Virus record (IMG/VR): IMGVR_UViG_2541047682_000010
DNA length: 12,139 nucleotides
Source: a virus
Lineage: Duplodnaviria > Heunggongvirae > Uroviricota > Caudoviricetes
Strand: one strand, 5' to 3'
The position numbers and the translations under genes were made by a program. The notes below the pieces were generated by a model. That model did no database searches. It saw only the letters and a program-made list of their open reading frames with translations, and had not been told where the DNA came from. Shown here one piece after another: positions 1 to 12,139 of the stretch (positions are counted from its first letter, which is position 1; the number at the start of each line of letters is the position of its first letter).

Positions 1-213
1 TTTCCGGGGCGCATCATGCTGGCTAATACCTGCACCTGGACCTATCGCGGTGATGAGTGCGGTTATCACGGTCCGGCTGTCGCGGATGAATATGACCAGC
101 CGACGTCCGATATCACGAAGGATAAATGCAGCAAATGCCTGAGTGGTTGTAAGTTTCGCAATAACGTCGGCAACTTTGGCGGCTTCCTTTCCATTAACAA
201 ACTTTCGCAGTAA
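1..213 (+). CDS. L: Tail tip protein L, 3' partial (5' end lies upstream of the window)
   Basis: Frame is open from base 1 to TAA at 211-213. The translated C-terminus (CTWTYRGDECGYHGPAVADEYDQPTSDITKDKCSKCLSGC...) matches my recollection of lambda gpL, and the position directly upstream of K-I-J fits lambda gene order. Confidence 0.85.
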   Translation, partial: FPGRIMLANTCTWTYRGDECGYHGPAVADEYDQPTSDITKDKCSKCLSGCKFRNNVGNFGGFLSINKLSQ

Positions 214-217
214 TCCC

Positions 218-961
218 ATGACACAGACAGAATCAGCGATTCTGGCGCACGCCCGGCGATGTGCGCCAGCGGAGTCGTGCGGCTTCGTGGTGAGAACGCC
301 GGAGGGGGAAAGATATTTTCCCTGCGTGAATATCTCCGGTGAGCCGGAGGCGTATTTCCGGATGTCGCCGGAGGACTGGCTGCGGGCAGAGATGCAGGGT
401 GAGATTGTGGCGCTGGTCCACAGCCACCCCGGTGGTCTGCCCTGGCTGAGTGAGGCCGACCGGCGGCTGCAGGTGCAGAGTGATTTGCTGTGGTGGCTGG
501 TCTGCCGGGGTGAGATTCATAAATTCCGCTGTGTGCCGCATCTTACCGGGCGGCGCTTTGAGCACGGGGTGACGGACTGTTACACGCTGTTCCGGGATGC
601 TTATCATCTGGCGGGGATTGAGATGCCGGATTTTCATCGCGGGGATGACTGGTGGCGTCACGGTCAGAATCTCTATCTGGATAATCTGGAGGCCACAGGG
701 CTGTATCAGGTGCCGTTGTCAGCGGCGCAGCCGGGCGATGTGCTGCTGTGCTGTTTTGGTTCATCGGTGCCGAATCATGCCGCCATTTACTGTGGTGACG
801 GCGAGCTGCTGCACCATATTCCTGAACAACTGAGCAAACGAGAGAGGTATACCGACAAATGGCAGCGACGCACACACTCCCTCTGGCGTCACCGGGCATG
901 GCACGCATCTGCCTTTACGGGGATTTGCAACGATTTGGTCGCCGCATCGACCTTCGTGTGA
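218..961 (+). CDS. K: Tail tip assembly protein K, with an N-terminal JAB/MPN (JAMM) domain and a C-terminal NlpC/P60 domain
   Basis: ATG at 218 lies 4 nt after the L stop. A JAMM motif HSHPGGLPWLSEAD (HxHx7SxxD) and an NlpC/P60-like Cys/His pair (GVTDCYTLF ... NHAAIYCGDGELLHH) are visible in the translation. An in-frame ATG at 362, preceded by GGAGG, would give the 199-aa form I recall from the classical lambda annotation, so the start is uncertain. Confidence 0.8.
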   Translation: MTQTESAILAHARRCAPAESCGFVVRTPEGERYFPCVNISGEPEAYFRMSPEDWLRAEMQGEIVALVHSHPGGLPWLSEADRRLQVQSDLLWWLVCRGEIHKFRCVPHLTGRRFEHGVTDCYTLFRDAYHLAGIEMPDFHRGDDWWRHGQNLYLDNLEATGLYQVPLSAAQPGDVLLCCFGSSVPNHAAIYCGDGELLHHIPEQLSKRERYTDKWQRRTHSLWRHRAWHASAFTGICNDLVAASTFV

Positions 962-1506
962 AAACGGGGGCCGAAGCCATCCGGGCGCTGGCCACACAGC
1001 TCCCGGCGTTTCGTCAGAAACTGAATGACGGCTGGTATCAGGTGCGCATTGCCGGGCGTGATGCAGGTGAAACCGAATTATCTGCCCGTCTTAATGAGCC
1101 GCTGGCAAATGGTGCCGTGATCCATATCGTGCCGCGTCTGGCGGGAGCTAAAAGTGGCGGTGTATTTCAGGTGGTGCTGGGGGCGGCGTTGATTGCGGTG
1201 GCATGGTGGAACCCTGTGGGCTGGCTGGGTGCCGCGGCTGTATCGGGCATGTATGCGGCAGGGGCCAGTATGATCCTGGGCGGTGTGGCGCAGATGCTGG
1301 CACCGAAAGCCAGGACGTCCACGGCAGCCAGTACAGATAACGGCAAACAGAACACCTATTTTTCCTCACTGGATAACATGGTTGCTCAGGGCAATGTTCT
1401 GCCTGTTCTGTACGGTGAAATGCGTGTGGGGTCGCGGGTGGTTTCTCAGGAGATCAGCACGGCAGACGAAGGGGATGGTGGTCAGGTTGTGGTGATTGGT
1501 CGCTGA
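859..1506 (+). CDS. I: Tail assembly protein I, ubiquitin-like (beta-grasp) N-terminal domain followed by a Gly/Ala-rich hydrophobic C-terminal region
   Basis: Translation begins MAATHTLPLASPGMARICLYGDLQRFGRRIDLRVKTGAEAIRALATQLPAF, which matches lambda gpI as I recall it. It overlaps the 3' end of K by 103 nt in a different frame. A ubiquitin-like tail IHIVPRLAGAKSGG is present. Confidence 0.9.
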   Translation: MAATHTLPLASPGMARICLYGDLQRFGRRIDLRVKTGAEAIRALATQLPAFRQKLNDGWYQVRIAGRDAGETELSARLNEPLANGAVIHIVPRLAGAKSGGVFQVVLGAALIAVAWWNPVGWLGAAAVSGMYAAGASMILGGVAQMLAPKARTSTAASTDNGKQNTYFSSLDNMVAQGNVLPVLYGEMRVGSRVVSQEISTADEGDGGQVVVIGR

Positions 1507-1525
1507 TGCAAAATGTTTTATGTGA

Positions 1526-1545
1526 AACCGCCTGCGGGCGGTTTT
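1526..1545 (+). other. Intergenic stem-loop between I and J (8-bp stem AAACCGCC/GGCGGTTT, 4-nt loop), followed by a U-rich stretch
   Basis: Perfect inverted repeat read directly from the sequence. It sits 20 nt after the I stop and 22 nt before the J start. Function unknown; possibly an mRNA structural element or a weak terminator. Confidence 0.3.
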
Positions 1546-1566
1546 GTCGTTTATGGAGCATGACGA

Positions 1567-4500
1567 ATGGGTAAAGGCAGCAGTAAGGGGCATACCCCGC
1601 GCGAAGCGAAGGACAACCTGAAATCCACGCAGTTACTGAGTGTGATCGATGCCATCAGCGAAGGACCGATAGAAGGTCCGGTGGATGGATTAAAAAGCGT
1701 GCTGCTGAACAGTACGCCGGTGCTGGACAGTGAAGGGAATACCAACATCGCCGGTGTCACGGTGGTGTTCCGGGCAGGTGAGCAGGAGCAGACACCGCCG
1801 GAGGGATTTGAATCCTCCGGATCCGAGACGGTGCTGGGTACGGAAGTGAAATATGACACGCCGATCACCCGCACCATCACGTCGGCAAACATCGACCGTC
1901 TGCGCTTTACCTTCGGTGTGCAGGCACTGGTGGAAACCACCTCAAAGGGGGACAGGAATCCATCGGAAGTCCGCCTGCTGGTTCAGATACAACGTAACGG
2001 TGGCTGGGTGACGGAAAAAGACATCACCATTAAGGGCAAAACCACGTCGCAGTATCTGGCCTCGGTGGTGGTGGATAACCTGCCGCCGCGCCCGTTTAAT
2101 ATCCGGATGCGCAGGATGACGCCGGACAGCACCACAGACCAGCTGCAGAACAAAACGCTCTGGTCGTCATACACCGAAATCATCGATGTGAAACAGTGCT
2201 ACCCGAACACGGCACTGGTCGGCGTGCAGGTGGACTCGGAACAGTTCGGCAGCCAGCAGGTGAGTCGTAATTATCATCTTCGCGGGCGCATTCTGCAGGT
2301 GCCGTCGAACTATAACCCGCAGAGGCGGCAATACAGCGGTATCTGGGACGGAACGTTTAAACCGGCATACAGCAACAACATGGCATGGTGTCTGTGGGAT
2401 ATGCTGACCCATCCGCGCTACGGCATGGGGAAACGTCTTGGTGCGGCGGATGTGGACAAATGGGCGCTGTATGTCATCGGACAGTATTGCGACCAGTCGG
2501 TGCCGGATGGTTTTGGTGGCACGGAGCCGCGCATCACCTGTAATGCGTACCTGACCACACAGCGCAAGGCGTGGGATGTGCTCAGTGATTTCTGCTCGGC
2601 GATGCGCTGTATGCCGGTATGGAACGGGCAGACGCTGACGTTCGTGCAGGACCGACCGTCGGATAAGGTGTGGACCTATAACCGCAGTAATGTGGTGATG
2701 CCGGATGATGGCGCGCCGTTCCGCTACAGCTTCAGCGCCCTGAAGGACCGCCATAATGCCGTTGAGGTGAACTGGATTGACCCGGATAACGGCTGGGAGA
2801 CGGCGACAGAGCTTGTTGAAGATACGCAGGCCATTCTCCGTTACGGTCGTAACGTCACGAAGATGGATGCCTTTGGCTGTACCAGTCGGGGGCAGGCACA
2901 CCGCGCCGGGCTGTGGCTGATTAAAACGGAGCTGCTGGAAACGCAGACCGTGGACTTCAGCGTGGGTGCTGAAGGGCTTCGCCATGTACCGGGCGATGTC
3001 ATTGAAATCTGCGATGATGACTATGCCGGTATCAGCACCGGCGGGCGAGTGCTGGCGGTGAACAGCCAGACCCGGACGCTGACGCTCGACCGTGAAATCA
3101 CGCTGCCATCCTCCGGTACCACGCTGATAAGCCTGGTTGACGGAAGTGGCAATCCGGTCAGCGTGGAGGTTCAGTCCGTCACCGACGGCGTGAAGGTAAA
3201 AGTGAGCCGTGTTCCTGACGGTGTTGCTGAATACAGCGTATGGGGGCTGAAGCTGCCGACGCTGCGCCAGCGACTGTTCCGCTGCGTGAGTATCCGTGAG
3301 AACGACGACGGCACGTATGCCATCACCGCCGTGCAGCATGTGCCGGAAAAAGAGGCCATCGTGGATAACGGAGCGCACTTTGACGGCGACCAGAGCGGCA
3401 CGGTGAATGGTGTCACGCCGCCAGCGGTGCAGCACCTGACCGCCGAAGTCACCGCAGACAGCGGGGAATATCAGGTGCTGGCGCGCTGGGACACGCCGAA
3501 GGTGGTGAAGGGCGTGAGCTTCCTGCTCCGTCTGACCGTAACAGCGGATGACGGCAGTGAGCGGCTGGTCAGCACGGCCCGGACGGCGGAAACCACTTAC
3601 CGCTTCAGGCAGCTGGCGCTGGGGCGTTACACGCTGACGGTCCGGGCGGTAAATGCCCGGGGACAGCAGGGCGATCCGGCGTCGGTATCGTTCCGGATTG
3701 CCGCACCGGCAGCGCCGTCTCGGATTGAGCTGACACCGGGCTATTTTCAGATAACCGCCACGCCACATCTTGCGGTTTATGACCCGACGGTACAGTTTGA
3801 GTTCTGGTTCTCGGAAAAACGGATTGCGGATATCAGGCAGGTTGAAACCACAGCCCGCTATCTTGGCACGGCGCTGTACTGGATAGCTGCCAGTATCAAT
3901 ATCAGGCCGGGCCATGATTATTATTTTTACGTTCGCAGTGTGAACACCGTTGGCAAATCGGCATTCGTGGAGGCTGTTGGTCGGGCGAGCGATGATGCGG
4001 AAGGTTACCTGGATTTTTTCAAAGGCCAGATAACCGAATCCCATCTTGGCAAGGAGCTGCTGGAAAAAGTCGAGCTGACGGAGGATAACGCCAGCAAACT
4101 GGAGGAGTTTTCGAAAGAGTGGAAGGACGCCAGTGATAAGTGGAATGCCATGTGGGGCGTCAAAATTGAGCAGACCAAAGACGGCAAACATTATGTCGCG
4201 GGTATTGGCCTCAGCATGGAGGACACGGAGGAAGGCAAACTGAGCCAGTTCCTGGTTGCCGCTAACCGTATCGCGTTTATTGATCCGTCTAATGGCAACA
4301 CAAGACCAATGTTTGTTGGTCAGGGCGATCAGATATTCATGAACGACGTGTTCCTGAAACGCCTGACGGCTCCGACCATTACCAGCGGCGGTAATCCTCC
4401 GGCATTTTCCCTGACACCGGATGGGCGGCTGACGGCGAAAAATGCCGATATCAGCGGTAACGTGAATGCGAACTCCGGGACGCTCAACAACGTCACGATT

Positions 4501-5682: not shown

Positions 5683-6242
5683 GTGGAGTGGATATGGCAG
5701 CAGTAAAAATCTCAGGTGTGCTGAAAGATGGTGCGGGAAAACCAATACAGAACTGCACTATTCAACTGAAGGCAAAGCGTAACAGCACCACGGTACTGGT
5801 GAACACGGTGGCCTCTGAAAATCCGGATGAAGCCGGGCGTTACAGCATGGATGTTGAGTATGGTCAGTACAGCGTCACCCTGCTGGTTGAAGGTTTTCCG
5901 CCTTCACATGCCGGGACCATTACCGTCTATGAAGGTTCCAGACCAGGTACGCTGAATGATTTTCTCGGTGCCATGACGGAAGATGATGTCATGCCGGAGG
6001 CATTGCGTCGTTTTGAGGCAATGGTGGAAGAAGCGGCACGCAACGCCGAAGCCGCCTCTCAGAGCGCAGCAGCGGCAAAGAAATCCGAAACTGCAGCGGC
6101 ATCATCGAAGAACGCGGCGAAAACCTCAGAAACAAATGCAGCTAACAGCGCACAGGCGGCAGCGTCCTCGCAGACTGCATCGGCAAACTCCGCGACAGCA
6201 GCCAAAAAATCAGAAACCAACGCGAAAAATAGCGAGACAGCC

Positions 6243-6382
6243 GCAAAGACGAGCGAAACCAACGCAAAGTCCAGCCAGACGGCAGCGAAAACAAGCGAAA
6301 CGAATGCCAAAGCCAGTGAAACTGCGGCAAAAAACAGCCAGGTTGCAGCAGCCCAAAGCGAGAGCGCGGCAGCCGGTTCTGC
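6243..6382 (+). repeat. Direct repeat copy 1 (about 140 bp) inside the stf shaft coding region
   Basis: Near-identical to 6432-6571, offset 189 bp (63 codons). Encodes AKTSETNAKSSQTAAKTSETNAKASETAAKNSQ.AAAQSESAAAGS. Confidence 0.75.
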
Positions 6383-6431
6383 GACTTCAGCAGCTGGATC
6401 AGCAACTGCTGCGGCTAACAGCCAGAAAGCT

Positions 6432-6571
6432 GCGAAGACGAGTGAAACTAACGCAAAGTCCAGCCAGACGGCAGCGAAGACCAGCGAAACGAATGCCAAA
6501 GCCAGCGAAACTGCGGCGAAAAACAGTCAGGATGCAGCAGCCCAAAGCGAGAGTGCTGCAGCTGGTTCTGC
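6432..6571 (+). repeat. Direct repeat copy 2 (about 140 bp) inside the stf shaft coding region
   Basis: Near-identical to 6243-6382; same reading frame and same peptide repeat. Confidence 0.75.
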
Positions 6572-7227
6572 AAGCGCGGCGGCTGCTTCTGCCACTGCAT
6601 CAGCCAACAGTCAAAAAGCAGCAAAAACCAGTGAAACCAATGCAAAGACAAGCGAGACTGCAGCGGCGAACTCGGCGAAAGCATCCGCTGCAAGCCAGAC
6701 CGCTGCAAAAGCAAGTGAAGACGCAGCCAGAGAGTATGCAAGCCAGGCAGCAGATCCGTATAAATATGTCTTACAGCCGCTGCCTGATGTGTGGATACCG
6801 TTTAACGATTCACTGGATATGATTACGGGCTTTTTGCCATCATATAAAAAGATTGTTATTGGTGACGACGAAATAACGATGCCTGGCGACAAGATTGTTA
6901 AGTTTAAACGTGCATCGAAAGCAACCTATATTAACAAATCTGGTGTGCTGACAGAGGCTGCCATTGATGAGCCACGATTTGAACGTGATGGCCTGCTTAT
7001 TGAGGGGCAAAGAACTAATCTTCTGCTTAATTCAACAAATCCATCTAAATGGAATAAGTCAGGCAATCTGGAACTCACAGAAATATCCACGGATTCTTTT
7101 AATTTTACTTATGGGAGATTTACTGTAAAAGATACTCTTATTGGTCAGACAAGTGCTATTAATATCGTAACGATTTCTGGCAGTAAAGGGTTTGATGTCA
7201 CAGGTGATGAAAAATATGTGACCATTT

Positions 7228-7232
7228 CATGC
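7228..7232. repeat. IS2 target-site duplication, left copy (CATGC)
   Basis: Identical 5-mer immediately flanks both IS2 termini. IS2 is known to make 5-bp duplications. Confidence 0.85.
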
Positions 7233-7243
7233 TGGATTTGCCC

Positions 7244-8149
7244 CTATATTTCCAGACACCTGTTATCACTTAACCCATTACTGGCTTGCTGCCGCAGATA
7301 TTCCCGTGGCGAGCGATAACCCAGTGCACTATGCGGATGCCATTCGTTATAATGCTCGAACGCCTCTGCAAGGTTCTTTGCTGCCGTTAACCCGTCTGGT
7401 TTGGGCATGACACTGATGTAGTCACGCTTTATCGTTTTCACGAAGCTCTCTGCTATGCCGTTACTCTCCGGACTCCGCACCGCCGTGCTCTTCGGTTCAA
7501 GCCCCAACATCCGGGCAAACTGCCGTGTTTCATTAGCCCGGTAGCATGAACCATTATCCGTCAGCCACTCTACTGGAGACGCCGGAAGCTCGTTGCCGAA
7601 GCGGCGTTCCACCGCTCCCAGCATGACGTCCTGTACTGTTTCACTGTTGAAGCCGCCCGTAGTGACCGCCCAGTGCAGTGCCTCACGGTCACAGCAGTCC
7701 AGCGCGAACGTGACTCGCAGTTTTTCTCCGTTATCACAGCGGAACTCGAACCCGTCAGAGCACCATCGCTGATTACTTTCTTTCACAGCCACTCTGCCTG
7801 TATGTGCCCGTTTCGATGGCGGTACAGCAGGTTTTCGCTCAAGCAACAGCGCATTCTGGCGCATGATCCGGTAAACACGTTTGGCATTGATCGCAGGCAT
7901 ACCATCAAGTTCTGCCTGTCTGCGAAGCAGCGCCCATACCCGACGATAACCATACGTGGGCAGCTCTCCGATAACATGGTGTATACGGAGAAGCACATCC
8001 GTATCATCAGTGTGACGACTGCGGCGGCCATCCATCCAGTCATCGGTTCGTCTGAGAATGACGTGCAACTGCGCACGCGACACCCGGAGACAACGGCTGA
8101 CTAAGCTTACTCCCCATCCCCGGGCAATAAGGGCGCGTGCGCTATCCAC
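7244..8149 (-). CDS. insD: IS2 transposase OrfB (InsD; DDE integrase-like catalytic domain), 301 aa
   Basis: Translation [23 protein letters not shown]...[12 protein letters not shown] is recognised as IS2 InsD. It overlaps insC by 43 nt, where an A6G slippery run (CAAAAAAG on the - strand, about 8149-8156) is the known site of programmed -1 frameshifting that produces the OrfAB transposase. Confidence 0.9.
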
Positions 8150-8472
8150 TTTTTTGCCCGTCCATATTCAACGGCTTCTTTGAGGAGTTCATTTTCCATC
8201 GTTTTCTTGCCGAGCAGGCGCTGGAGTTCTTTAATCTGCTTCATGGCGGCAGCAAGTTCAGAGGCAGGAACAACCTGTTCTCCGGCGGCGACAGCAGTAA
8301 GACTTCCTTCCTGGTATTGCTTACGCCAGAGAAATAACTGGCTGGCTGCCACACCGTGTTGCCGGGCAACGAGGGAGACCGTCATCCCTGGTTCAAAGCT
8401 CTGCTGAACAATTGCGATCTTTTCCTGTGTGGTACGCCGTCTGCGTTTCTCCGGTCCTAAGACATCAATCAT
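8107..8472 (-). CDS. insC: IS2 OrfA (InsC; helix-turn-helix regulator and transposase N-terminal part), 121 aa
   Basis: Translation [56 protein letters not shown]... is recognised as IS2 InsC. The ORF track gives an extended 136-aa frame from 8517; the canonical start is the internal Met. Confidence 0.9.
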
Positions 8473-8563
8473 CTGCTCTCCAATGACTAGTCTAAAAACT
8501 AGTATTAAGACTATCACTTAAATAAGTGATATTGGTTGTCTGGAGATTCAGGGGGCCAGTCTA

Positions 8564-8568
8564 CATGC
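8564..8568. repeat. IS2 target-site duplication, right copy (CATGC)
   Basis: Identical to 7228-7232. Confidence 0.85.
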
Positions 8569-9407
8569 CGTGTAAGAAGTGATGTTGAAAATATAAGGTG
8601 TCGTTTAAGATTTGAACACCATGATGGTTATACTTACACTTTTTTGGGAGATGCTTACCTCAATTTATCAACACTTGTAATTGATAAAACTGGTACTGCT
8701 GCAGACCGTATTATTGCAAAGGCTGTAAAAGATGAGGTTACTGGTTGGATTTTCTATCAGGCTACAATTAATGCACTAGATACAGAGAGCATGATTGGTG
8801 CGATGGTTCAATACGCTCCTGTAAAAGGTTCAGGTACAGCATCTGGAGACTATCTGGATATCGCAACTCCACAAGTGGAAGGTGGATCAAGTGCTTCGTC
8901 ATTTATTGTAACTGATATAACTGCAAGCACTCGCGCAAGCGATATGGTGACAGTCCCAATCAAGAATAACCTTTATAATCTTCCTTTTACGGTTCTTTGT
9001 GAGGTACATAAGAACTGGTATAAAACGCCAAATGCAGCACCGCGTGTTTTTGATACCGGCGGTCATCAAACCGGAGCGGCTATTATTCTTGGCTTCGGTC
9101 GTTCAACAGATTACGACGGATTTCCTTATTGTGATATAGGTTTGGCTAACAGACGGGTAAACGAAAACGCATCGCTTGAAAAAATGGTTATGGGGATGCG
9201 TGTAAAGTCAGATCAGTCTACGTGCTCAGTAAGTAACGGGCGTATATCCAGCGAAAAGAAAGCCACATGGTCCTATATTCAGAACTCCGCAATTATCCGT
9301 ATTGGAGGCCAGACTACAGCCGGGTTGCGTCATTTATTTGGTCATGTCAGGAATTTCAGAATATGGCACAAGGCATTGACTGATGCTCAGATGGGGGAGT
9401 CAATCTA

Positions 9408-9689
9408 ATGAAAGATTTAACACTCAAATTTGCAGACAGGGCCGACTTTTCGGCCTTTATGGATAGCATTGGCTATTATGATGACGAGTCGATGCAGGAT
9501 GATATTCTTATTGACGTGATAGGTAACGTGTACAAAGAAACCGGAGAACTGACTGAAGATGGCGAACCGGTATGTGTTAAGGAAGATGGATATTTTGTAA
9601 ACGTGCGCATCATTAATGATGCAAAAAAATCGTTAATATTCGATGAATACGCGGTTGTAGTTGAACATCAACTTCGTGGCTGGATGTGA
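9408..9689 (+). CDS. Hypothetical small acidic protein (93 aa), translationally coupled to stf
   Basis: The ATG overlaps the stf stop (TAATG). GGGGAG lies 9 nt upstream. Low G+C like the distal stf domain. Asp/Glu-rich. No family recognised. Confidence 0.6.
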   Translation: MKDLTLKFADRADFSAFMDSIGYYDDESMQDDILIDVIGNVYKETGELTEDGEPVCVKEDGYFVNVRIINDAKKSLIFDEYAVVVEHQLRGWM

Positions 9690-10934: not shown

Positions 10935-11525
10935 TTATATGTCAGGTGTCTGAAGTTTTGCTTTGGCTCTTAAAATGGTTTGCCGCGAGGTTTTGAATTC
11001 CCGGGCAATGGCACTTATACTTACACCTGACTTAATTCGTTCGAATACCACCTGTTTCTGTTCTTCATTTAACACAGGTGGTCGACCAAAACGTTTCCCT
11101 GCGCCCCGGGCTCTTACTATCCCGGAATGAGTGCGTTCAAGTAAAAGGTCTCGTTCAAATTCAGCGACTGCTGAAATTACTTGCATCATCATTTTCCCTG
11201 TTGGACTGGTCAGGTCAATGCCCCCCAATGCTAAGCAATGCACTCTGATACCTGTTTCGGTCAGTTGTTCCACTGTTTTCCTGATATCCATTGCATTACA
11301 ACCAAGGCGATCCAGTTTTGTCACAATCAATTGATCACCACATTTCAGACGAGCAAGCAACCGGTTAAAACCAGGACGCTCACTGGTTGCTGCTGAGCCG
11401 CTAATGTGTTCTTCGATTATTTGCTGAGGTTTGATTTTAAAACCTGCACTTTCGATTTCCCGGCGTTGATTTTCGGTGGTCTGATCCAGCGTTGATATCC
11501 GACAGTAAGCAAAAATTCGAGACAT
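10935..11525 (-). CDS. pin: Serine recombinase (resolvase/invertase family, PinR/PinQ-like), 196 aa
   Basis: N-terminal catalytic motif YCRISTLDQ with the nucleophilic Ser, and a C-terminal helix-turn-helix ([20 protein letters not shown]). The sequence matches my recollection of the E. coli prophage PinR/PinQ proteins. Position next to tfa is as in Rac and Qin. Confidence 0.9.
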
Positions 11526-11905: not shown

Positions 11906-12139
11906 TTACACTTTACCATTTAAATTTTGGTTGTCTTTAAGAACTGATATCGCTGTTTGTAATAATTCTTTGTTATCCAGCCATGACTTTTTCTTTATGT
12001 TTCCTTCAATGTAATCAAGCAATGTTCTGGTATTGATAGGTCTTCCCTGTTTTGCTACTTCCACGACAGCATCTCCCAGGATAATTCTGACTTCAGGAAG
12101 CTGCGCAGGGAACCACTTTAGGGTGTCTTTTGATTTCAT
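11906..12139 (-). CDS. Small prophage protein (77 aa if the ATG at the window edge is the true start), YnaE/YdfK-like by synteny
   Basis: Complete ORF on the - strand whose ATG is the last three bases of the window. Its RBS and any upstream extension cannot be seen. The position next to pin matches pinR-ynaE and pinQ-ydfK in E. coli K-12. The synteny assignment is from memory and was not verified. Confidence 0.5.
   Translation of the reverse strand: MKSKDTLKWFPAQLPEVRIILGDAVVEVAKQGRPINTRTLLDYIEGNIKKKSWLDNKELLQTAISVLKDNQNLNGKV

What the first reader, a model, noticed from the sequence alone, without database searches (positions are those of the whole stretch)
218..1506. K and I form a phage ubiquitin-like pair; K start codon and K/I overlap
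K carries a complete JAMM motif (HSHPGGLPWLSEAD) plus an NlpC/P60 Cys/His pair, and I has a ubiquitin-like C-terminal tail ending in GG (IHIVPRLAGAKSGG). This is consistent with the published proposal that lambda K and I are a JAB/ubiquitin-like system. Two further points. The ATG at 218, 4 nt after the L stop, adds 48 residues upstream of the GGAGG-preceded ATG at 362; those residues may supply the conserved upstream Glu of the JAB fold, so the short 199-aa form may be truncated. And I begins 103 nt inside K in another frame.
Basis: partly seen in the sequence, partly recalled or inferred. Interest (0 to 1): 0.45.

Follow-up and report, generated by a model that had tools for sequence, protein, structure and literature searches.

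The report
Lambda-type tail genes K and I
These are the ordinary tail-tip assembly genes K and I of a lambda-like prophage: K is a 247-residue two-domain protease that removes the ubiquitin-like head of I, which is already published, and the 199-residue K of the lambda reference most likely comes from one missing G in that 1982 sequence.

Summary
In detail: every coordinate, motif and overlap is as stated. K (218-961) is a 247-aa protein with a JAB/JAMM metalloprotease domain and an NlpC/P60 domain. I (859-1506) has an N-terminal MoaD/SAMP-like ubiquitin-like domain ending at an invariant Gly101, then hydrophobic helices and the tail-tip plug domain.

The long K start is correct. Residues 1-48 carry four of the family's most conserved positions (Glu19 in 55 of 56, Cys21, Gly22, Asn38). 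They complete the Pfam JAB match (53.6 against 23.9 bits). They vary mainly at third codon positions, and they fold confidently (pLDDT 97). Met49 is Ile in most distant relatives. RefSeq already annotates 247 aa in close relatives.

The 199-aa lambda K most likely arises from one G missing at position 14266 of J02459/NC_001416. Four independent lambda-type records aligned here and a published lambda gt10 variant table all have that G.

The mechanism is already known. It was predicted in 2006. [quoted passage not shown] A homologue's N-terminal domain is removed in F-pyocin.

One refinement: the start of I conserved across the family corresponds to ATG 898. ATG 859 is a lambda-clade extension with its own Shine-Dalgarno sequence.

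Verdict: already known, low interest.

The parts
1..213 (+). 3' end of gene L (minor tail protein); stop TAA at 211-213
   Evidence: Pfam Phage_tail_L, E = 5.8e-27, profile positions 140-206 of 206. Sequence read.
218..961 (+). Gene K, full-length CDS (247 aa, about 28.3 kDa). ATG lies 4 nt after the L stop and has no Shine-Dalgarno sequence, so translational coupling to L is inferred.
   Evidence: ORF. Annotated at the same length in RefSeq for mEp460, in 434 and in E. coli ESC818. Anti-SD duplex energy +0.7 kcal/mol. The gap from L stop to K start is mostly -4 to +12 nt across relatives. Molecular weight.
224..532 (+). JAB/JAMM (MPN+) metalloprotease domain of K, residues 3-105
   Evidence: Pfam Prok-JAB, 53.6 bits, profile positions 3-113 of 114. 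AF2 pLDDT 97. Foldseek top hit is P. furiosus JAMM1 (5ld9/5lda), TM 0.67, rmsd 2.5 A over 107-109 columns.
272..274 (+). Codon of Glu19 (in the motif P-A-E-S-C-G), the upstream catalytic Glu of the E-x(n)-H-x-H-x7-S-x2-D JAMM motif. It is present only in the long form.
   Evidence: E in 55 of 56 diverged homologues; G22 and N38 invariant; C21 in 53 of 56. It aligns with the P-N-E-A-C-G motif of PDB 2kks.
419..460 (+). JAMM zinc-binding motif H68-S-H70-x7-S78-x2-D81
   Evidence: H68, H70 and D81 invariant; S78 is S or T in all 56 sequences.
346..364 (+). Internal GGAGG (346-350) and ATG 362 (Met49), which is the start of the 199-aa 'short K' of the lambda reference. It is not a conserved start.
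   Evidence: Anti-SD duplex -9.5 kcal/mol. Met49 is Ile in 71, Val in 5, Leu in 2 and Met in 2 of the 80 loci below 90% identity, and Ile in 37 of 56 sequences of alignment A3. A few close alleles lack the SD or the ATG.
548..889 (+). NlpC/P60 (C40) cysteine peptidase domain of K, residues 111-224. Catalytic Cys121 (578-580), His187, His199.
   Evidence: Pfam NLPC_P60, 47.7 bits, full profile 1-105. C121 in 55 of 56, H187 in 55 of 56, H199 in 56 of 56. Foldseek hits to MepS/Spr and C. difficile Acd33800.
859..1506 (+). Gene I as annotated (215 aa). ATG 859 has a Shine-Dalgarno sequence. ATG 898 (Met14) is the start position conserved across the family.
   Evidence: SD energy -9.3 at 859 against -1.5 at 898. 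In relatives with about 50% K identity the I frame opens only 61-88 nt before the K stop, and the start 3-4 residues before strand 1 carries the SD.
859..961 (+). K/I overlap (103 nt; 64 nt if I starts at 898). I is in the -1 frame relative to K.
   Evidence: In 898-958, 7 of 10 variable sites fall at I codon position 3. No X_XXY_YYZ slippery heptamer is present.
898..1161 (+). Ubiquitin-like (MoaD/ThiS/SAMP-type beta-grasp) domain of I, residues 14-101, ending ...AGAKSG-G101. The predicted scissile bond is G101|V102 (nt 1161|1162).
   Evidence: Pfam Lambda_tail_I, residues 14-97, 86.9 bits. AF2 pLDDT 70-82 for this domain. Foldseek hits to SAMP1 3po0, MoaD 6jbz_B/1fm0_D, CysO 3dwg_C, Urm1 and ubiquitin. 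P92, G96 and G101 invariant.
1162..1503 (+). Structural part of I, residues 102-215: two hydrophobic helices and the C-terminal plug domain that sits in the tail-tip lumen
   Evidence: Matches lambda gpI in PDB 8iyk/8iyl/8k35/8xcg/9e7m. In lambda virions only residues from about 101 or from 134-135 are resolved (PMC11101478, PMC10721106, PMC12617516).
1523..1550 (+). GC-rich hairpin followed by T-rich tail between I and J
   Evidence: Sequence. The equivalent site is annotated as a terminator in phage 434 record OL657226. The simple terminator scan did not pick it up.

Best explanation
The region holds the tail-tip assembly genes K and I of a lambdoid prophage.

K:
- It is translated from ATG 218, most likely by coupling to termination of L 4 nt upstream.
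- The product is a 247-aa, non-virion, two-peptidase assembly factor: an N-terminal JAB/JAMM zinc metalloprotease (E19, H68, H70, S78, D81) and a C-terminal NlpC/P60 cysteine peptidase (C121, H187, H199).

I:
- It is made as a precursor with three parts: a ubiquitin-like beta-grasp domain (residues 14-101), two hydrophobic helices and a plug domain.

Proposed sequence of events:
- The precursor joins the J/L tip complex.
- The JAB domain of K then cuts after the invariant Gly101 and releases the ubiquitin-like domain.
- The C-terminal part stays in the virion as the trimeric plug that holds the tape-measure C-terminus.

Shown here:
- the domain architecture, the conserved catalytic residues, the folds, the correct K start and the gene organisation across relatives.

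Shown by others:
- gpK is absent from virions.
- Only the C-terminal part of gpI is resolved in virions.
- gpK cleaves the gpI ubiquitin-like domain (conference summary only).

Inferred:
- the exact scissile bond, coupling of K translation to L, and any role of the NlpC/P60 domain.

The 199-aa K of the lambda reference most likely results from one missing G at 14266 in J02459.
For: Long K:
- Pfam JAB covers profile 3-113 of 114 at 53.6 bits for the long form. The short form gives 23.9 bits, below the cut-off of 25.
- Among the 150 best representatives listed (2,738 hits in all), the full-length relatives at 35-59% identity align from their own N-termini to K residues 1-15.
- Conservation: E19 in 55 of 56, G22 and N38 in 56 of 56, C21 in 53 of 56.
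- Variable sites in codons 1-48 fall 9:4:25 by codon position. The rest of the gene gives 28:10:74.
- AF2 gives pLDDT 97.1 and pTM 0.91, with residues 3-36 forming helix 1 and strands 1-2.
- The model matches PfJAMM1 over 107-109 columns.
- K starts within a few nt of the L stop in relatives from 26% to 99% identity.
- Met49 is Ile in most relatives.
- RefSeq and other records already annotate 247 aa.

Reference error:
- J02459/NC_001416 lacks a G that is present in OM418626, PV340536, KT232076, LC730321, 434, mEp460 and the window.
- MutaMouse lambda gt10 lists 14266 C>CG (PMC6760142).
- In the reference, the ATG at 14133 opens a 76-codon ORF that leaves the K frame at that point.

K/I mechanism:
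- The prediction comes from PMC1779556.
- I's ubiquitin-like fold is supported, and the invariant G101.
- gpK is not found in virions, and gpI is resolved only from about residue 101 or 134.
- The PA0640 N-terminal domain is absent from mature F-pyocin particles and present in assembly-stalled precursors.
- Its neighbour PA0639 has an intact JAB domain plus NlpC/P60.
Against: - There are no direct protein data for this prophage.
- ATG 218 has no Shine-Dalgarno sequence (+0.7 kcal/mol), whereas ATG 362 has a good one (-9.5). Internal initiation therefore cannot be excluded, and about a fifth of automated gene calls in public data use the short start.
- The experimental proof of gpK-dependent cleavage is available to me only as a conference summary.
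- The cleavage site is not stated there.
- One paper says lambda gpI is resolved 'from position 101', which is the last Gly itself. If taken literally, this would not fit a cut exactly after G101.
- The F-pyocin authors saw removal of the PA0640 N-terminal domain by unknown E. coli proteases when the protein was expressed alone.
- I could not model the K-I complex or measure the E19-to-zinc-site geometry.
Confidence: 0.9

Rival explanations
1. K is the 199-aa protein starting at ATG 362, as in the lambda reference. Region 218-361 would then be untranslated or a separate small ORF.
For: - GGAGG lies 11 nt upstream of ATG 362, with duplex energy -9.5 kcal/mol, whereas ATG 218 has no SD.
- NC_001416, J02459 and OM418626 annotate 199 aa.
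- Large 199-aa clusters exist in public gene calls.
Against: - The short form loses half of the JAB domain and the catalytic Glu. Its Pfam score is 23.9 bits, below the cut-off.
- Residues 1-48 are among the most conserved in the family and show a coding-type substitution pattern.
- Met49 is Ile, Val or Leu in 78 of the 80 loci below 90% identity.
- The lambda annotation rests on a missing base.
Confidence: 0.03
2. Both forms are made in the lambda-like clade. Full-length K arises by coupling to L. A 199-aa isoform, consisting of NlpC/P60 plus a crippled JAB domain, arises by internal initiation at ATG 362.
For: The internal SD plus ATG is present in nearly all of the 75 close alleles, and Met49 is confined to this clade.
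Against: - GGAGG is largely a by-product of the codons for E-P-E-A.
- A few close alleles have lost either the SD or the ATG.
- There is no conservation outside the clade.
- There is no evidence of function for a half JAB domain.
Confidence: 0.1
3. I starts at ATG 898 (Met14), so that the overlap with K is 64 nt, rather than at ATG 859.
For: - The only start position conserved across relatives lies 3-4 residues before strand 1.
- In many relatives the I frame is closed further upstream.
- The Pfam model starts at residue 14.
- Residues 1-8 have pLDDT below 50.
- Many RefSeq records annotate 200-202 aa.
Against: - In this clade the SD sits before ATG 859 (-9.3), and ATG 898 has none (-1.5).
- The groups at 76% and 57% K identity show the same arrangement.
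- The lambda and ESC818 annotations use 859.
Confidence: 0.25
4. The JAB domain of K also, or mainly, acts as an anti-defence deubiquitinase. It would strip bacterial Bil-type ubiquitin-like conjugates from the central tail fibre J.
For: The authors of the Bil study put this forward as a speculation (bioRxiv 10.1101/2023.09.04.556158). K acts at the J-containing tip complex.
Against: - K is always paired with a ubiquitin-like domain encoded in I that carries an invariant terminal Gly.
- The pairing also holds in tailocins.
- Cleavage of gpI by gpK is reported.
- No test of this idea exists.
Confidence: 0.07

Closest known systems
Bacteriophage lambda gpK and gpI (tail tip assembly proteins K and I)
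   Same: Orthologues with the same gene order L-K-I-J and the same 103-nt overlap. K DNA is about 97% identical in the compared stretch. I aligns end to end with PDB 8iyk chain I, E = 1e-106.
   Different: - The lambda reference records K as 199 aa because of a missing G at 14266.
- I here is 215 aa rather than 223 aa, with a shorter and diverged hydrophobic-helix segment.
Archaeal JAMM1/desampylase with SAMP ubiquitin-like proteins (P. furiosus JAMM1-SAMP2, PDB 5ld9/5lda; H. volcanii SAMP1, PDB 3po0)
   Same: These are the best structural matches for K's JAB domain and for I's ubiquitin-like domain. Both systems pair a minimal JAMM enzyme with a MoaD-like beta-grasp domain that ends in Gly.
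   Different: - There is no E1-dependent conjugation here. The ubiquitin-like domain is made as a fusion and is cut off once.
- K carries an extra NlpC/P60 domain.
- The NCBIfam desampylase score is 30 bits against a cut-off of 130.
F-type pyocin PA0639 and PA0640 of Pseudomonas
   Same: PA0639 has JAB plus NlpC/P60 with E-C-C-G and HSHx7SxxD motifs. PA0640 has the ubiquitin-like, helices and plug layout with the conserved Gly. Its N-terminal domain is removed in mature particles.
   Different: It is a tailocin, not a phage. K and I do not overlap (54-nt gap). The protease had not been assigned in that preprint.
Prokaryotic JAB proteins next to ThiS/MoaD-like proteins (Iyer, Burroughs and Aravind 2006)
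   Same: The same clade of JAB domains, and the same logic of cutting after the C-terminal Gly of a ubiquitin-like domain.
   Different: Those systems free a C-terminus for sulfur transfer or conjugation. Here the released ubiquitin-like domain is, as far as is known, discarded, and the other fragment is the functional product.

Membership tests
JAMM/MPN+ metalloprotease (Pfam Prok-JAB PF14464) | Profile match above the curated threshold over the whole domain | tested here: met
   53.6 bits against a cut-off of 25, profile positions 3-113 of 114, for the 247-aa form. The 199-aa form gives 23.9 bits and fails.
JAMM/MPN+ metalloprotease (Pfam Prok-JAB PF14464) | E-x(n)-H-S/T-H-x7-S-x2-D catalytic and zinc-binding motif, as defined in PMC300881 | tested here: met
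   E19, H68, S69, H70, S78 and D81 are present in the window and are conserved in 53-56 of 56 relatives.
JAMM/MPN+ metalloprotease (Pfam Prok-JAB PF14464) | MPN fold | tested here: met
   AF2 model with pLDDT 97. Foldseek matches to PfJAMM1, AMSH, Rpn11 and CSN5, probability 1.00. This is a predicted structure, not a solved one.
JAMM/MPN+ metalloprotease (Pfam Prok-JAB PF14464) | Zinc binding and peptidase activity on the ubiquitin-like C-terminus | not testable with these tools
   Available only as a literature report: a conference summary that gpK cleaves the gpI ubiquitin-like domain (PMC12908700).
NlpC/P60 (C40) cysteine peptidase | Profile match above threshold, the Cys-His-His/polar triad, and a papain-like fold | tested here: met
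   47.7 bits against a cut-off of 23, full profile. C121 in 55 of 56, H187 in 55 of 56, H199 in 56 of 56. Foldseek matches to MepS/Spr and Acd33800. The substrate is unknown.
Lambda_tail_I / ThiS-MoaD-type ubiquitin-like beta-grasp domain | Profile match, beta-grasp fold, and a conserved Gly at the C-terminal end of the domain | tested here: met
   PF06805, 86.9 bits against a cut-off of 23.8. The model of residues 11-95 has pLDDT 70-82 and matches SAMP1, MoaD, CysO, Urm1 and ubiquitin. G101 is invariant in 32 and in 36 sequences. The penultimate Gly is not conserved.
Ubiquitin-like conjugation system (E1/E2-dependent tagging) | An E1-like adenylating enzyme (and an E2) encoded alongside, and a free ubiquitin-like C-terminus that is conjugated to targets | tested here: not met
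   The large ORFs of the 12-kb window are L, K, I, J, Lom, tail-fibre genes, an IS element and an invertase. No E1 or E2 domain was found among the ORFs scanned. The ubiquitin-like domain is made fused upstream of the structural domain. This is therefore a processing pair, not a conjugation system.
Desampylase (NCBIfam NF041370) | Score above the equivalog cut-off | tested here: not met
   30 bits against a cut-off of 130. K is a homologue, not a member.

The most novel reading that the evidence does not exclude
Two readings are not excluded. First, lambda-clade phages may deliberately make two K isoforms: the full 247-aa JAB plus NlpC/P60 enzyme, and a 199-aa JAB-defective form from the clade-specific internal GGAGG/ATG. 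Second, the unexplained NlpC/P60 domain may carry out a second, still unassigned processing event in tail assembly. One candidate is the gpH to gpH* cleavage, whose protease is stated to be unknown (PMC12617516).
Probability: 0.1. Interest if true: 0.45.

Novelty: already known. Interest (0 to 1): 0.15.

Why it matters
There is little new biology here. The JAB/ubiquitin-like pairing was predicted in 2006 and gpK-dependent cleavage of gpI has now been reported. The long K start is already standard in RefSeq for relatives.

The practical value lies in curation. The most-used lambda records (J02459/NC_001416, and any database entry derived from them) still give a 199-aa K that lacks the catalytic Glu, most likely because one G is missing at 14266. 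Anyone who designs K constructs, mutants or structure predictions from that record would work with a truncated enzyme.

A second curation point concerns I. Several records start I at a GTG overlapping the K stop, which removes the first strand of the ubiquitin-like domain.

Tried and rejected
- Programmed -1 frameshift making a K-I fusion in the overlap: no X_XXY_YYZ heptamer occurs in 850-961. The K-I fusion proteins in databases (for example P0015 and P0087) look like read-through or frameshift artefacts.
- The search for related loci with the diverged K alignment failed because it had no conserved stretch. Single proteins were used instead.
It was repeated with database homologues.
- Modelling a K-I complex, or measuring the distance from E19 to the zinc site, was not possible.
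- The lambda ribosome-profiling paper (Liu et al. 2013, PMC3718152) is not held, so there is no direct translation evidence.
- The full text of the start-codon note in the phage 434 record is cut off by the tool.
- LfgB/YfjY, a prophage JAMM protease found in the literature search, is a RadC-like protein unrelated to K.
- OR974322 and OR474059 match the lambda reference at 14266. They also share its extra G at 138, so they look reference-derived rather than independent.
Full report
**What the window is**

The 12,139-nt window is the tail-tip and tail-fibre end of a lambdoid E. coli prophage. In order it holds:
- the 3' end of L
- K, I and J
- lom
- an stf-like tail-fibre gene interrupted by an IS3-family element
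- further fibre genes
- a Pin-type invertase

Window positions 1-1600 are 99.3% identical to phage PhiR47_1 and 97.6% identical to mEp460. The whole window matches an E. coli ESC818 prophage at 98.3%.

**Checking the observation**

All coordinates in the finding are correct.
- The L stop is at 211-213.
- ATG 218 opens a 247-codon ORF that ends at 961.
- ATG 362 is in frame, and GGAGG lies at 346-350.
- I runs 859-1506 in the -1 frame, so the overlap is 103 nt.
- K contains H68-S-H70-x7-S78-x2-D81 together with C121, H187 and H199.
- I contains ...IHIVPRLAGAKSG100-G101.

Pfam confirms the domain assignments well above threshold: Prok-JAB at 2.5e-14, NLPC_P60 at 1.7e-12 and Lambda_tail_I at 1.3e-24.

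One point of wording needs correcting. The GG ends the ubiquitin-like domain, not the protein, because 114 residues follow it.

**Which K start is real**

Six independent lines of evidence favour ATG 218.

1. Domain completeness. The long form matches positions 3-113 of the 114-position JAB profile at 53.6 bits. The short form matches only positions 63-113 at 23.9 bits, which is below Pfam's cut-off.

2. Conservation in distant relatives. A full scan of 1.84 billion representative proteins gave 2,738 hits. Among the 150 best listed, the full-length relatives at 35-59% identity (228-271 aa) align from K residues 1-15 to residues 1-31 of their own sequences. In a 56-sequence alignment:
   - G22 and N38 are invariant.
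   - E19 is present in 55 of 56 sequences, C21 in 53, P17 in 51 and F47 in 55.
   - This matches the conservation of the zinc ligands H68, H70 and D81.
   - E19 lies in a P-x-E-x-C-G motif that aligns with the same motif in the solved JAB protein 2kks.

3. Substitution pattern. Among 75 distinct close alleles, the variable sites in codons 1-48 fall 9:4:25 at codon positions 1:2:3. The rest of the gene gives 28:10:74.

4. Gene organisation. In 160 related loci, K at 26-99% identity begins with ATG, is mostly 234-251 aa long and mostly starts -4 to +12 nt from the L stop.

5. The internal start is not conserved. Met49 is Ile in 71, Val in 5 and Leu in 2 of the 80 loci below 90% identity. It is Ile in 37 of the 56 aligned homologues.

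6. Predicted structure. AlphaFold2 gives pLDDT 97.1 and pTM 0.91. Residues 3-36 form the first helix and two strands of the JAB domain. The best PDB match is Pyrococcus JAMM1, including its complex with the ubiquitin-like SAMP2, over 107-109 columns at 2.5 A.

The one point in favour of ATG 362 is its Shine-Dalgarno sequence (-9.5 kcal/mol against +0.7 for ATG 218). That is why roughly a fifth of automated gene calls choose it. Translational coupling to L is the likely way ATG 218 is used, but this is an inference.

**Where the 199-aa form comes from**

Aligning the window with lambda showed that NC_001416/J02459 lacks one G in GGAGGC[G]TATTTCC, just upstream of the annotated K start. Four independent lambda-type records carry the G:
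- lambda imm434, OM418626
- lambda, PV340536
- lambda, KT232076
- lambda, LC730321, which is 48,503 bp

Phage 434, mEp460 and the window also carry it. additionally lists DE3, HK629 and HK630 as matching the 201-base reference stretch over 202 bases at 99.5% identity, which fits the same extra base, but I did not align them.

A published variant table for the lambda gt10 transgene of MutaMouse lists exactly '14266 C>CG', together with '137 AG>A' (PMC6760142).

Only two records share the reference state at 14266. Both also share the reference's extra G at 138, so they look reference-derived.

In the reference, the ATG at 14133 opens a 76-codon ORF that runs out of the K frame at the missing base. 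The lambda K ORF is therefore almost certainly 247 codons as well. PV340536 already annotates lambda K that way, as do RefSeq mEp460, phage 434 and E. coli ESC818.

**Gene I and the overlap**

The N-terminal domain of I is predicted at moderate confidence (pLDDT 70-82 for residues 11-95). Its best PDB matches are SAMP1, MoaD, CysO, Urm1 and ubiquitin.

Across 32 and 36 diverse homologues, P92, G96 and G101 are invariant, while G100 varies. G101 is followed directly by the hydrophobic helices.

The C-terminal part matches lambda gpI in the solved tail-tip structures.

The overlap with K is conserved in frame but not in length:
- 103 nt in the lambda clade
- 58-64 nt in relatives at about 50% K identity
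- 11 nt in the most distant viral relatives
- none in the F-pyocin locus

The start position shared by all relatives corresponds to ATG 898 (Met14), 3-4 residues before the first strand. In distant relatives that start carries the Shine-Dalgarno sequence (-6 to -10 kcal/mol). In the lambda clade the Shine-Dalgarno sequence sits before ATG 859 (-9.3) and ATG 898 has none (-1.5). The 13-residue extension is therefore probably real here but specific to this lineage.

Within 898-958, variation follows the I frame: 7 of 10 variable sites fall at I codon position 3. There is no slippery heptamer in the overlap.

**Mechanism and prior knowledge**

- Iyer, Burroughs and Aravind (2006) identified the ubiquitin-like domain of tail assembly protein I. 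They predicted that the JAB domain of K releases it by cutting at the C-terminal Gly.
- Ambroggio et al. (2003) had already listed lambda K among JAMM proteins.
- Cryo-EM and mass spectrometry of lambda show that gpK is absent from virions. They also show gpI resolved only from about residue 101, or from 134-135, as a trimeric plug holding the tape-measure C-terminus.
[quoted passage not shown] The gpK homologue PA0639 is essential for tip assembly, and the protease was left open.
- I found that PA0639 has a complete JAB domain plus NlpC/P60.
- The idea that such phage deubiquitinase-like domains might also counter the bacterial Bil system has been published as a speculation.

**Verdict**

This check adds three things:
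- the explanation for the short lambda K, which is a single-base gap in the reference sequence
- the family-wide picture of the I start
- the point that this is a one-time processing pair, not a conjugation system, because no E1 or E2 is encoded in the window

Still open are the role of the NlpC/P60 domain and whether the clade-specific internal start at 362 is ever used.

Noticed in passing
L003 (NC_001416) about position 867 of the locus, which is lambda 14266; also lambda 138 (L185): The lambda reference J02459/NC_001416 lacks a G at 14266 and has an extra G at 138, relative to independent lambda-derived sequences and to a published lambda gt10 variant table. The first difference truncates the annotated K to 199 aa.
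   Followed up: yes
L001 (mEp460) 1259-1807; L005 (PV340536) from 1575; L006 (KT232076) from 1575; equivalent to window GTG 958: Several public records start gene I at a GTG overlapping the K stop (GTGA). That start would remove the first beta-strand of the ubiquitin-like domain (MARICLYGDL...), so it is probably a mis-called start.
   Followed up: partly
window 7244-8517 (- strand), between ORFs 5688-7319 and 8536-9408: An IS3-family element (HTH_Tnp_1 orfA and rve orfB, IS2-like) interrupts the stf-like tail-fibre gene. That gene is one intact 2,379-nt ORF in E. coli ESC818, so the side tail fibre of this prophage is probably inactivated.
   Followed up: partly
window 10935-11525 (- strand) and 11906-12139 (- strand): A Pin/Hin-type serine invertase (Resolvase plus HTH_7 domains) sits next to the tail-fibre genes, and a ydfK-like cold-shock gene lies at the right edge. 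I did not look for an invertible fibre segment.
   Followed up: no
window 6000-6850 (within ORF 5688-7319): The stf-like protein contains long Ala/Ser/Thr/Lys-rich repeats (..AAKTSETNAKSSQTAAKTSETNAKASETAAKNSQ..). These also generate long spurious ORFs in other frames and on the opposite strand.
   Followed up: no
window 2167-4191 (- strand): A 674-codon open frame runs antisense to J. It has no family match that I looked for and is most likely a by-product of J's codon composition.
   Followed up: no
window 218-958 and 859-1503 against PHROGs: phrog_35166 (322 positions) matches K residues 3-83 and then I residues 13-202. This is an architecture with JAB fused directly to I and no NlpC/P60 domain, the variant mentioned by Iyer et al. 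Databases also hold K-I and L-K fusion proteins (P0015, P0026, P0034, P0087) that look like frameshift or read-through artefacts.
   Followed up: partly
L170 (Pseudomonas paraeruginosa) 1658-3088: In the F-pyocin locus, the K homologue's ATG falls at the L homologue's stop codon. The I homologue starts 54 nt after the K stop, so the K/I overlap is not universal.
   Followed up: partly
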